Shown here: one piece after another, positions 16,330 through 17,206 of the stretch
Layout: every line of letters starts with the position of its first letter
Numbering within the stretch: position 1 is the stretch's first letter
IMG/VR virus record: IMGVR_UViG_2737471827_000002
Location: 1-32,272 of that record
Source: a virus
Taxonomy: Duplodnaviria > Heunggongvirae > Uroviricota > Caudoviricetes
Length of the DNA stretch: 32,272 nt
Reading direction: 5' to 3' (one strand)
Notes under the pieces: generated by a model
The model's input: the letters and a program-made list of their open reading frames with translations, nothing else
Told to the model about the DNA's origin: nothing
Database searches by the model: none
Program-made: the position numbers and the translations under genes

Positions 16330-16442
16330 GGGTATTTATCAGGATTTATCGGCTTCAAATCCCCGGATATGTTAAATCTTACCTCGCCAGTGATGGGCAC
16401 TGGCGGGAGGAGGATGTCAATCTGATAAACACAGAGGTGACT

Positions 16443-16703
16443 ATGGATTACACAAATCTACCAAAACAAACTTTTGCTGATTTAATCGCACTCAGGCAAG
16501 CAGTCGTAGCTCTAATCAACTTGTTGCCAGAGAAGGAAAAGGAATTAGTTAAAGCGCTTCTTAACAGAACTGCCGCCGATTTTTCATCATATTCACTGAC
16601 AGATGACCTTGTGGACCTTCCTGAATTAATTGCAGCGTCCGCCATTAAGCTTACTGAAGAGATTTACCCTCCTCAAAAATCTTCACAAAATTCCTGCGAG
16701 TAA
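16443..16703 (+). CDS. Hypothetical 86-aa protein, convergent with and overlapping the 3' end of the 183-aa gene
   Basis: Good SD AGAGGTGA 5 nt before ATG 16443; ORF track lists 16437-16703 from a GTG; no recognisable domain. Confidence 0.45.
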   Translation: MDYTNLPKQTFADLIALRQAVVALINLLPEKEKELVKALLNRTAADFSSYSLTDDLVDLPELIAASAIKLTEEIYPPQKSSQNSCE

Positions 16704-17202
16704 CTTCAATGCAATAATCGTAAAACGCCGCAAACTGCTCATCGCGGTGTTTTTTTTCATCTTCAGAAGGAATCAGCACCGACAATTTTTTATTCAGATC
16801 AGCGACGCTGCCCTCCAGTTTTTCAATGAGCGATTCAATATCATCTTTTTCTGACCGCAATGCCGTAGGTGGCGTCTTCAGAGAACCAGTAATTCTTCCC
16901 GGTAGTTTTCCTCTGTAGGTTATCCACACATTCTGCGCCTCTAAAATTATGGGGCGCTTTCCCGGCAACGGTTCGTTCCCTTCACATAACCCGGCAGCAA
17001 TATCCCGGAACAATATCTTTGCCTGTTTGATTGCCTCTGTCTCGTAAAACTCCAGCGTTGCCCCTTCAACACGATCCATGCTGATATTCAGATCAACAAT
17101 TTCACCGGCAAAACGTTCTTTATCCTGTAAGGCTACAATTACCGAGACTTTATTCTCAAAATTGCGGGTTCCTTTCACAATCAACTCATAGCTTTTAATC
17201 AT
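16651..17202 (-). CDS. Hypothetical 183-aa protein inserted between holin and endolysin
   Basis: ATG at 17202 lies 4 nt after the holin stop (17207) with SD GGGGAGAG formed by the last holin codons; soluble, coiled-coil-like C-terminal half; no family recognised. Confidence 0.65.
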   Translation of the reverse strand: MIKSYELIVKGTRNFENKVSVIVALQDKERFAGEIVDLNISMDRVEGATLEFYETEAIKQAKILFRDIAAGLCEGNEPLPGKRPIILEAQNVWITYRGKLPGRITGSLKTPPTALRSEKDDIESLIEKLEGSVADLNKKLSVLIPSEDEKKHRDEQFAAFYDYCIEVTRRNFVKIFEEGKSLQ

Positions 17203-17206
17203 TGAA

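What the first reader, a model, noticed from the sequence alone, without database searches (positions are those of the whole stretch)
16330..17206. Lysis cassette split by an unrecognised 183-aa gene coupled to the pinholin, with a convergent overlapping 86-aa gene
In phage 21 and 933W-type lysis cassettes, as I recall them, S, R and Rz/Rz1 are contiguous. Here a 183-aa soluble protein gene starts 4 nt after the pinholin stop, using the last holin codons as its SD, so it should be co-translated with the holin at lysis. About 320 bp then separates it from the SAR endolysin, and that gap carries a plus-strand 86-aa ORF with a good SD whose 3' end overlaps the 183-aa gene by 53 nt. This could be a lysis regulator, an antisense regulatory arrangement, or a defence insertion at a site guaranteed late expression.
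Basis: partly seen in the sequence, partly recalled or inferred. Interest (0 to 1): 0.75.

Follow-up and report, generated by a model that had tools for sequence, protein, structure and literature searches.

The report
YdfR-family gene in prophage lysis cassette
The "unrecognised" gene between the holin and the endolysin belongs to the known but poorly characterised YdfR (DUF1327) family, which often sits at this spot in E. coli prophages; here it is fused to a second small module that travels with a small opposite-strand gene.

Summary
On the minus strand the order is pinholin (17207-17422), a 4-nt gap, orf183 (16651-17202), a 321-nt gap, then the SAR endolysin (15796-16329). A plus-strand 86-aa ORF (16443-16703) overlaps the orf183 3' end by 53 nt.

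orf183 is not unrecognised. Residues 1-112 are Pfam DUF1327/YdfR, and K-12 Qin has essQ-ydfR-rrrQ. About half of complete E. coli genomes match part of this interval. 283 of 5426 carry this exact layout, annotated "YdfR family protein | hypothetical protein".

Three points go beyond the annotation:
- orf183 is a fusion of the YdfR domain (A) with a 70-aa helical module (B). B also occurs as a free 67-aa gene in the same slot.
- B and orf86 form a ~490-bp cassette that is nearly identical across otherwise diverged cassettes (dS 0.02-0.19 against 0.3-3 in the flanks).
- The ydfR-R junction holds at least four unrelated opposite-strand ORFs in different phages, placed like lambda bor.

Function is unproven. 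The only experimental lead is a 2026 report that K-12 YdfR binds the RNase E catalytic half and co-purifies RNA. No defence, toxin-antitoxin or solved-structure match was found. Overall this is an ordinary cassette with modest interest.

The parts
17207..17422 (-). S21-type class II holin (pinholin), 71 aa. Its N-terminus is MYQMEK, so Met1 and Met4 are both present but the Lys2 of S21-71 is absent.
   Evidence: Pfam PF04971, 121.7 bits against a cut-off of 26. PHROG holin families. PGAP annotates 'class II holin family protein' in strain R1, which is 99.8% identical.
17210..17217 (-). GGGGAGAG Shine-Dalgarno for orf183, lying inside the last holin codons (R-G-E). The holin stop TAA is at 17209-17207, followed by the TTCA spacer.
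   Evidence: Read directly from the sequence. The same S 3' end with a 4-nt joint precedes R in 933W, short YdfR and free B genes.
16867..17202 (-). orf183 module A (residues 1-112): the YdfR/DUF1327 domain.
   Evidence: Pfam PF07041, E 5.5e-35, covering residues 1-112. 62% identical to K-12 YdfR over residues 1-74. AF2 predicts beta-beta-beta-alpha for residues 4-73, with pLDDT 63-89 by block.
16651..16866 (-). orf183 module B (residues 113-183 plus the stop): a two-helix module. Elsewhere it is a free 67-aa gene or the N-terminus of a 213-aa protein.
   Evidence: Alignment A1. 54% identical to residues 4-62 of the L051 213-aa protein, which lacks DUF1327. A free 67-aa form occurs in L047 and L050. 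AF2 predicts helices 121-143 and 147-182 at low confidence.
16443..16703 (+). orf86: a convergent 86-aa acidic protein (pI 4.6), predicted to be a three-helix protein. An alternative GTG start lies at 16437, and a GAGG SD at 16434-16437.
   Evidence: phrog_2572, E 3.7e-52, full length. PGAP annotates it as hypothetical protein WP_072033262.1. Only one true frameshift among the 21 unique variants from 46 IMG/VR loci. AF2 mean pLDDT 74. Present in 314 of 5426 E. coli genomes, all at 90% identity or more.
16651..16703 (.). 53-nt 3'-3' overlap between orf183 and orf86.
   Evidence: The same 53-nt overlap is annotated in phage PhiR12_1 and is present with the free B gene in L050.
16722..16757 (+). 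Candidate intrinsic terminator for orf86: stem AAAACGCCGC / GCGGTGTTTT, a 12-nt loop and a T8 run. It is encoded inside module B codons K-K-H-R-D-E-Q-F-A-A-F.
   Evidence: Terminator scan. Fold energy -15.1 kcal/mol, z = -2.5. The hairpin and T-run are intact in all six orf86-bearing loci examined, and weakened or lost in three B-containing loci without orf86.
16381..16867 (.). Roughly 490-bp B/orf86 cassette. This is the segment absent from short-YdfR cassettes, and it is hyper-conserved relative to its flanks.
   Evidence: BP-4795 and 606R7 align only to 16202-16380 (or 16202-16356) and to 16868 onward. The identity profile is. dS is 0.02-0.19 for orf86, against 0.3-1.4 for R, 0.4-1.7 for A and 0.5-3.3 for S.
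16330..16395 (-). Conserved leader of about 65 nt upstream of the 177-aa endolysin gene, with no obvious SD. It is shared by the aligned cassettes with this endolysin type except Qin, where ydfR overlaps rrrQ.
   Evidence: Alignment A4.
15796..16329 (-). SAR-type endolysin, 177 aa, of the RrrQ/933W R type.
   Evidence: Pfam PF00959. PGAP annotates rrrQ lysozyme. The N-terminal Ala/Ser-rich weakly hydrophobic segment and the E-8-D-5-T motif ([16 protein letters not shown]) were read from the translation.
15335..15814 (-). Rz spanin, with the embedded Rz1 lipoprotein ORF at 15397-15579.
   Evidence: Pfam PF03245, E 4e-52. The Rz1 ORF carries the lipobox LVVVGC.

Best explanation
orf183 is a YdfR-family (DUF1327) accessory gene sitting in its usual slot, directly after an S21-type holin and before a 177-aa SAR endolysin. 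This is the Qin / H-19B / BP-4795 cassette type, not a disrupted phage-21 cassette.

Shown here:
- The protein is an in-frame fusion of two modules that also exist separately. Module A is the YdfR domain (residues 1-112). Module B is a roughly 70-aa helical hairpin.
- Module B and the convergent orf86 form one ~490-bp unit. This unit has spread by recombination into otherwise diverged cassettes.

Inferred:
- orf183 is made late, from the Q-dependent lysis transcript. Its start is coupled to holin translation by a junction that every gene occupying this slot shares.
- Its YdfR domain acts in the cytoplasm as an RNA- and RNase E-binding accessory factor and is not part of the lysis machinery. 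This rests on homology to K-12 YdfR, whose residues 1-72 bind the RNase E N-terminal half.
- orf86 is a moron-like gene, comparable to lambda or 933W bor. It lies on the strand opposite to late transcription, with its own SD and a hairpin plus T8 terminator embedded in module B codons. It would be expressed outside the late program and silenced by head-on late transcription.

The confidence of 0.5 is a blend: family identity and modular anatomy are near certain (about 0.95), while the RNase E/RNA-binding role and the moron reading of orf86 are each about 0.35-0.4.
For: Family identity:
- Pfam DUF1327 at 119.9 bits and phrog_2091 over the full length.
- 62% identity to K-12 YdfR over residues 1-74.

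The slot is conserved:
- Qin has essQ-ydfR-rrrQ; BP-4795 has S-ydfR-R.
- 106 phage records carry a homologue.
- In a holin-sampled set, about 30 loci had S, 4 nt, YdfR and then a 177-aa R. About 22 had phage-21-type S/R21 with no YdfR.

Modularity:
- Forms seen are A only, A+B, A+B+C, B+C and B only.

Cassette mobility:
- dS is 0.02-0.19 in orf86 and about 0 in B for most close variants, against 0.3-3.3 in R, A and S. The identity profile agrees.
- All 314 genomic copies of orf86 are at least 90% identical.

RNase E and RNA lead:
- PMC13232886 reports a two-hybrid signal, co-purification of Rne(1-598) and RNA with Strep-YdfR, and mapping of the interaction to residues 1-72.
- The AF2 N-domain is beta-beta-beta-alpha. 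It gives weak fold matches to dsRBDs and to the Rad52/Red-beta/ERF core.

orf86 as a gene:
- It has an SD, and only one of 21 unique variants carries a true frameshift.
- Variable sites fall 14:7:7 at codon positions 3:2:1.
- AF2 gives pLDDT 74.
- The terminator hairpin has z = -2.5 and is kept where orf86 is present.

Hot spot:
- Unrelated convergent ORFs occupy the same junction: 90 aa (phrog_2411), 104 aa (phrog_1853) and 233 aa.
Against: - The RNase E and RNA binding data concern the 103-aa K-12 protein only. In that study overexpression changed few transcripts, and the authors could not exclude a contaminant for the RNA signal.
- No sigma-70 consensus promoter was found upstream of orf86.
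- orf86 dN/dS is only 0.35-0.8. An antisense 65-aa frame (16448-16645, minus strand) shares its third codon positions, so the codon-position test cannot tell the two strands apart.
- 8 of 47 loci have ATG changed to ACG at the orf86 start.
- Hyper-conservation could reflect recent spread alone and says nothing about function.
Confidence: 0.5

Rival explanations
1. orf183, or specifically its B module, is a cytoplasmic regulator of the pinholin. It would be functionally like an antiholin, as T4 RIII is, and would set lysis timing by binding the charged cytoplasmic C-tail of the holin.
For: - The gene is always the first one after an S21-type holin, with a 4-nt coupled junction.
- B is a small helical hairpin.
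- The holin here begins MYQMEK and lacks the Lys2 of the S21-71 antiholin form.
- Among the loci fetched, holins without Lys2 carried a B module in 28 of 30 cases, against 20 of 81 for MKSMDK holins.
- A K-12 ydfR mutant was flagged in an envelope-integrity screen (reference 79 of PMC13232886).
Against: - The coupled junction is generic. R itself uses it in 933W.
- Phage-21-type and 933W-type cassettes have no YdfR or B.
- The holin/B association is confounded by physical linkage and by how the loci were sampled, since 46 of them were chosen for carrying orf86.
- No similarity to any known antiholin was found.
- The envelope phenotype could be a polar effect on rrrQ.
Confidence: 0.18
2. B and orf86 together form a two-gene conflict module carried as cargo in the lysis cassette. 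It could act in superinfection exclusion, abortive infection, toxin-antitoxin maintenance or anti-defence.
For: - It is a compact, mobile, hyper-conserved two-gene cassette.
- The slot collects unrelated opposite-strand ORFs, as moron or defence hot spots do.
- The convergent 3' overlap resembles some type I toxin-antitoxin layouts.
Against: - No PADLOC hit for either protein, and no NCBIfam hit.
- Neither protein is hydrophobic (GRAVY -0.07 and -0.36) and neither has a predicted membrane segment. That differs from type I toxins.
- B is frequently fused to YdfR or to module C, which is unusual for a toxin or antitoxin.
- No enzymatic domain was detected.
Confidence: 0.12
3. orf86 is not a gene. 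The 321-nt gap would then be a recombination scar or an untranslated leader of R, and the open plus-strand frame would be fortuitous.
For: - dN/dS is 0.35-0.8, and control frames give similar values.
- No consensus promoter was found.
- The start codon is lost in 8 of 47 loci, and the SD is altered in three.
- There are no homologues outside a group at 83% identity or more.
- An ORF of this length arises in 2.2% of shuffles.
Against: - The frame is intact in all but one of the 21 unique variants.
- An in-frame 9-nt deletion is tolerated.
- Variable sites are enriched at third codon positions, 14 of 28.
- AF2 predicts a three-helix protein at pLDDT 74 from a shallow alignment.
- A good SD and a downstream hairpin with T8 are present.
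- The minus-strand RNA of the gap shows no unusual structure (z = -0.46), so RNA structure does not explain the conservation.
- Gene callers behind PGAP and PHROGs both accept it.
Confidence: 0.15

Closest known systems
YdfR of the E. coli K-12 Qin cryptic prophage (Pfam DUF1327; essQ-ydfR-rrrQ-rzpQ)
   Same: - Same family (PF07041).
- Same position immediately after an S21-type holin, with a 4-nt spacer, and before a 177-aa RrrQ-type lysozyme.
- 62% identity over residues 1-74, the stretch reported to bind RNase E.
   Different: - K-12 YdfR is 103 aa, diverges after residue 74, and overlaps the rrrQ start.
- orf183 carries the extra B module.
- orf183 is separated from R by 321 nt that hold a convergent gene.
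Lysis cassettes of phage 21 (S21-R21-Rz/Rz1) and 933W (S-R-ant-Rz/Rz1-bor)
   Same: - S21-type holin, SAR-type endolysin and embedded Rz/Rz1.
- 933W shares the 177-aa endolysin type and the same S 3' end with its 4-nt junction.
   Different: - In both phages S and R are contiguous, with no YdfR, no B module and no orf86.
- Phage 21 uses a different, 165-aa endolysin that overlaps S.
Lambda / 933W bor (a moron on the opposite strand next to the lysis genes, expressed in lysogens)
   Same: It is a small gene on the strand opposite to late transcription, placed in or at the lysis cassette, and apparently self-contained with its own SD and terminator.
   Different: - bor encodes an outer-membrane lipoprotein with a known serum-resistance role and lies after Rz.
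- orf86 is a cytoplasmic acidic helical protein between ydfR and R.
- The orf86 promoter and its expression are unverified.
Phage-encoded RNase E modulators (T7 gp0.7, T4 Srd, phiKZ Dip)
   Same: If the K-12 result transfers, orf183 would be a phage protein that contacts RNase E. (These three proteins are recalled from general knowledge, not from a tool result.)
   Different: - No sequence or fold relationship was found.
- Those proteins act early or in the middle of infection and have demonstrated effects on RNA decay.
- YdfR is encoded in the late lysis operon, and overexpression of the K-12 protein changed few transcripts.

Membership tests
YdfR / DUF1327 (Pfam PF07041) | Profile match above the curated gathering score | tested here: met
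   119.9 bits against a cut-off of 25, covering residues 1-112. Also phrog_2091 over 183/183 positions.
YdfR / DUF1327 (Pfam PF07041) | Gene lies directly downstream of an S21-type holin and upstream of the RrrQ-type lysozyme | tested here: met
   All roughly 30 YdfR loci in the holin-sampled set had the 177-aa endolysin type.
YdfR / DUF1327 (Pfam PF07041) | Binding to the RNase E N-terminal half and to RNA, reported only for K-12 YdfR | not testable with these tools
   Only homology is available: 62% identity over the mapped region, residues 1-72.
Phage 21-type pinholin / SAR endolysin cassette | Class II holin of the S21 family | tested here: met
   PF04971, 121.7 bits.
Phage 21-type pinholin / SAR endolysin cassette | Dual-start motif in which the longer product gains a positive charge (the Lys2 of S21-71) | tested here: not met
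   The N-terminus is MYQMEK. Met1 and Met4 are present, but there is no Lys or Arg before Met4. The comparison with MKSMDK in S21 rests on recalled knowledge and on holins in related loci.
Phage 21-type pinholin / SAR endolysin cassette | S immediately followed by R | tested here: not met
   873 nt (16330-17202) lie between the end of the 4-nt S junction and the R start.
Moron (lambda bor-like, autonomously expressed cargo gene) | Orientation or placement independent of the surrounding operon, with its own terminator | tested here: met
   The gene is on the opposite strand. A hairpin plus T8 starts 19 nt after the stop, at -15.1 kcal/mol and z = -2.5, and is retained in orf86-bearing loci.
Moron (lambda bor-like, autonomously expressed cargo gene) | Own promoter and expression in the lysogen | tested here: inconclusive
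   The consensus scan found no sigma-70-like site in 16200-16442 on the plus strand. Expression data are not available here.
Known anti-phage defence systems (PADLOC-DB) | Profile match of either protein to a defence-system component | tested here: not met
   No families matched at E up to 1 for orf183 or orf86.
Type I toxin-antitoxin with convergent 3' overlap | Small hydrophobic membrane toxin opposite a non-coding antisense RNA | tested here: not met
   Both products are soluble (GRAVY -0.07 and -0.36) and have no hydrophobic segment. Both strands appear to encode folded helical proteins.

The most novel reading that the evidence does not exclude
Module B, whether free-standing or fused to YdfR, is a previously unknown cytoplasmic partner of pinholins that have lost the Lys2 antiholin start. 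The convergent, overlapping B/orf86 pair would then act as a small lysogeny-versus-lysis switch: orf86 is made in the lysogen and is shut off by head-on late transcription, while its terminator is written into B codons. The cassette would be a mobile lysis-timing module.
Probability: 0.08. Interest if true: 0.6.

Novelty: new member of a known kind. Interest (0 to 1): 0.3.

Why it matters
YdfR-family genes sit in the lysis cassettes of a large share of E. coli, Shigella and Salmonella lambdoid prophages, including Stx phages, yet no role is known for them.

- The family turns out to be modular (A, B and C modules).
- Module B travels with a convergent partner gene as a nearly invariant cassette.
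- The ydfR-R junction is a hot spot for opposite-strand cargo.

These points give concrete constructs for testing two questions: whether these proteins tune lysis or RNA metabolism, and whether the cargo genes matter in lysogens. For the scan itself, the lesson is that this is an annotated, common arrangement and not a new system.

Tried and rejected
Searches that gave nothing informative:
- PADLOC and NCBIfam for both proteins: no hits.
- PDB sequence profile search: only insignificant hits to coiled-coil-like stretches.
- BFVD Foldseek: nothing at E 0.001 or better.
- afdb50 was not available.
- Exhaustive HMMER over 1.84 billion representatives found only 67 relatives, and the named relatives in the separate homologue search are all Escherichia, Shigella or Salmonella. 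There is no remote family to borrow a function from.
- Rfam on 15000-19000 found nothing credible inside the finding.
- Literature: DUF1327 appears in one paper, and YdfR appears substantively in one.

Ideas tested and rejected or left undecided:
- A structured RNA explains the conserved gap. Rejected: z = -0.46.
- The B extension is read-through junk, as PGAP's 'missing C-terminus' pseudogene call suggests. Rejected, because B is conserved at the protein level in other contexts and exists as a free gene.
- dN/dS can prove that orf86 is coding. Not decisive, because divergence is very low and an antisense frame shares the third codon positions.
- The Pfam DUF1823 label used for orf86 in some phage records is not supported (E 0.07, 13.7 bits against a cut-off of 25).
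- orf86 is homologous to the other convergent ORFs (90 aa and 104 aa). No similarity was found.

Full report
**1. Observation**

The lysis cassette runs on the minus strand.
- The S21-type holin is at 17207-17422 (71 aa; Pfam PF04971, 121.7 bits).
- Its stop TAA (17209-17207) is followed by TTCA and then the ATG of orf183 (17202).
- A GGGGAGAG Shine-Dalgarno lies inside the last holin codons.
- orf183 ends at 16651.
- The 177-aa SAR-type lysozyme starts at 16329, leaving a 321-nt gap. Rz and Rz1 follow.
- On the plus strand an 86-aa ORF (ATG 16443, GAGG 5 nt upstream, stop at 16703) overlaps the orf183 3' end by 53 nt.
- An ORF this long arises in 2.2% of dinucleotide shuffles.

**2. Identity of orf183**

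orf183 belongs to a recognised family.
- Residues 1-112 match Pfam DUF1327/YdfR at E 5.5e-35, and the whole protein matches phrog_2091.
- K-12 Qin has essQ, a 4-nt gap, ydfR and rrrQ. K-12 YdfR is 62% identical over residues 1-74.
- BP-4795 has S-ydfR-R, and 105 other phage records, including H-19B, carry a homologue.
- Part of the interval matches 2542 of 5426 complete E. coli genomes. 283 carry the whole layout, annotated 'YdfR family protein | hypothetical protein'.
- In strain R1 (99.8% identical) PGAP calls the gene a pseudogene 'missing C-terminus' and annotates only residues 1-114. Identical-length homologues elsewhere are annotated as intact.
- The family is small. It has 67 representatives at 50% identity among 1.84 billion proteins, and every named relative is from Escherichia, Shigella or Salmonella.

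**3. Cassette types**

I sampled IMG/VR loci by the holin.
- About 22 loci were phage-21-type, with S overlapping a 165-aa R21 and no YdfR.
- About 30 loci had S, 4 nt, a 104-116-aa YdfR and then the 177-aa endolysin.
- 933W has S, 4 nt and then the 177-aa R directly.

Two conclusions follow. The 4-nt joint with an SD in the holin codons belongs to the holin 3' end and serves whichever gene comes next.

**4. Modularity**

Alignments show three modules:
- Module A is the DUF1327 domain, residues 1-112.
- Module B is residues 113-183, with the conserved stretch LRSEKDDIES..KKLSVLxPSEDEKKRRDEQFAAFYDYCIEVTRRNFVK.
- Module C is a further extension of about 115 aa.

The forms seen are:
- A alone.
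- A+B, at 169, 176, 183 or 211 aa.
- A+B+C, at 296 aa; these loci have no convergent ORF and lie 36 nt from R.
- B+C, at 213 aa, in a Stx2a phage, again 4 nt after the holin.
- B alone, at 67 aa, in L047 and L050.

B is therefore a real, independent coding module and not read-through sequence.

**5. The B/orf86 cassette**

- Short-YdfR cassettes align to the window only outside 16381-16867.
- All 46 IMG/VR loci that carry orf86 also carry B as the convergent partner, where enough sequence is present.
- This segment is far more conserved than its surroundings. dS is 0.02-0.19 in orf86 and about 0 in B for most close variants. It is 0.3-1.4 in R, 0.4-1.7 in A and 0.5-3.3 in S. The sliding identity profile agrees.
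- All 314 genomic copies of orf86 are at least 90% identical.
- The minus-strand RNA of the gap has no unusual structure (z = -0.46).

Recent recombinational spread of a discrete cassette is the simplest reading.

**6. Is orf86 a gene?**

For:
- It has a well-spaced SD.
- Only one of 21 unique variants has a true frameshift, and a 9-nt deletion is in frame.
- 14 of 28 variable sites fall at third codon positions.
- AF2 predicts a three-helix protein with mean pLDDT 74 from 11 sequences.
- A hairpin plus T8 begins 19 nt after the stop (-15.1 kcal/mol, z = -2.5). It is intact in six orf86-bearing loci and degraded in three B-containing loci that lack orf86.
- It matches phrog_2572 and has a PGAP call.

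Against:
- dN/dS is 0.35-0.8. An antisense 65-aa frame shares the same third positions, so this test does not discriminate.
- No consensus promoter was found.
- The start ATG is changed to ACG in 8 of 47 loci.
- No homologues exist below about 83% identity.

I judge it probably real, at about 0.8, with expression unverified.

**7. A hot spot**

The same junction holds unrelated opposite-strand ORFs in other phages:
- A 90-aa ORF (phrog_2411) overlapping the ydfR 3' end by 35 nt.
- A 104-aa ORF (phrog_1853).
- A 233-aa ORF overlapping about 250 nt of a 305-aa YdfR variant.

None resembles orf86. The placement recalls bor in 933W, which lies on the opposite strand after Rz and is annotated as expressed in the lysogen.

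**8. Function**

- No defence, NCBIfam or PDB sequence match was found.
- The AF2 model of orf183 is poor overall (pLDDT 54). It gives a beta-beta-beta-alpha N-domain (residues 4-73, pLDDT 63-89), a low-confidence linker (residues 70-122) and two C-terminal helices.
- The only experimental evidence is PMC13232886 (2026). In that study K-12 YdfR bound the RNase E N-terminal half in two-hybrid and co-purification assays, with the interaction mapped to residues 1-72. RNA co-purified with it, but overexpression changed few transcripts.
- That paper also cites an envelope-integrity screen hit for ydfR.

My best-supported mechanism is a late-made cytoplasmic RNA- and RNase E-binding accessory protein, fused here to B. 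The main rival is a cytoplasmic pinholin regulator. This rival gains some interest because this holin lacks the Lys2 of the S21-71 antiholin form, and such holins were mostly linked to B in my biased sample (28 of 30, against 20 of 81).

**9. Verdict**

This is a common, annotated cassette type with an uncharacterised family member, not a new system. The modular A/B/C structure, the hyper-conserved B/orf86 cassette and the opposite-strand hot spot are modest new observations. Interest is about 0.3.

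Noticed in passing
window 17916-18104 (-) and 18282-18500 (-): There is a strong Rfam match to the sRNA STnc100 (RF02076; 113 bits against a gathering score of 47). A weak second copy scores 29 bits. Both lie between the DNA methyltransferase gene and the holin, on the late-transcript strand.
   Followed up: no
window 17461-17487 (-), with Rfam sub-threshold hit 17456-17552 (-): A 10-bp GC-rich hairpin followed by a T-run sits about 40 nt upstream of the holin ATG. 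It overlaps a sub-threshold SgrS-like match of 24.9 bits. It may be a terminator that Q-modified polymerase reads through, or the 3' end of an sRNA.
   Followed up: no
window 17411-17422 (-): The holin N-terminus is MYQMEK, not the MKSMDK of S21-type holins in many related loci. The longer dual-start product would therefore gain no positive charge. In the fetched loci, holins lacking Lys2 were mostly linked to module B (28 of 30, against 20 of 81). The sample is biased and the genes are physically linked.
   Followed up: partly
L079:3131-3403 (-); L051:3145-3459 (-); L056:3167-3868 (-): Three other opposite-strand ORFs, unrelated to each other, occupy the ydfR-R junction in related prophages. 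They are 90 aa (phrog_2411), 104 aa (phrog_1853) and 233 aa (no family). The 233-aa ORF overlaps about 250 nt of a 305-aa 'YdfR family' gene, so the C-terminus of that 305-aa protein may be antisense read-through.
   Followed up: partly
L001:3532-3873 (= window 16861-17202): RefSeq annotation is inconsistent. The 99.8%-identical gene in strain R1 is called a pseudogene ('missing C-terminus'). 183-aa homologues in other genomes are annotated as intact YdfR family proteins.
   Followed up: yes
window 16448-16645 (-): A 65-aa ORF lies antisense to orf86, on the late-transcript strand, starting 5 nt after the orf183 stop. It has no SD, is Ser/Ala-rich and has pI 9.9. It shares third codon positions with orf86, so substitution patterns cannot tell which strand is coding.
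   Followed up: partly
window 14946-15185 (+): Another small opposite-strand gene lies just downstream of Rz. It is annotated as a YlcI/YnfO family protein in the near-identical strain R1, and the corresponding Qin gene ynfO is annotated as DUF3950. This is a second moron-like placement next to the lysis genes.
   Followed up: no
window 16330-16395 (-): The 177-aa endolysin gene has a conserved leader of about 65 nt with no recognisable Shine-Dalgarno. The leader is shared across the aligned cassettes with this endolysin type, whereas in Qin ydfR overlaps the rrrQ start. How R translation starts in these cassettes is unclear.
   Followed up: no
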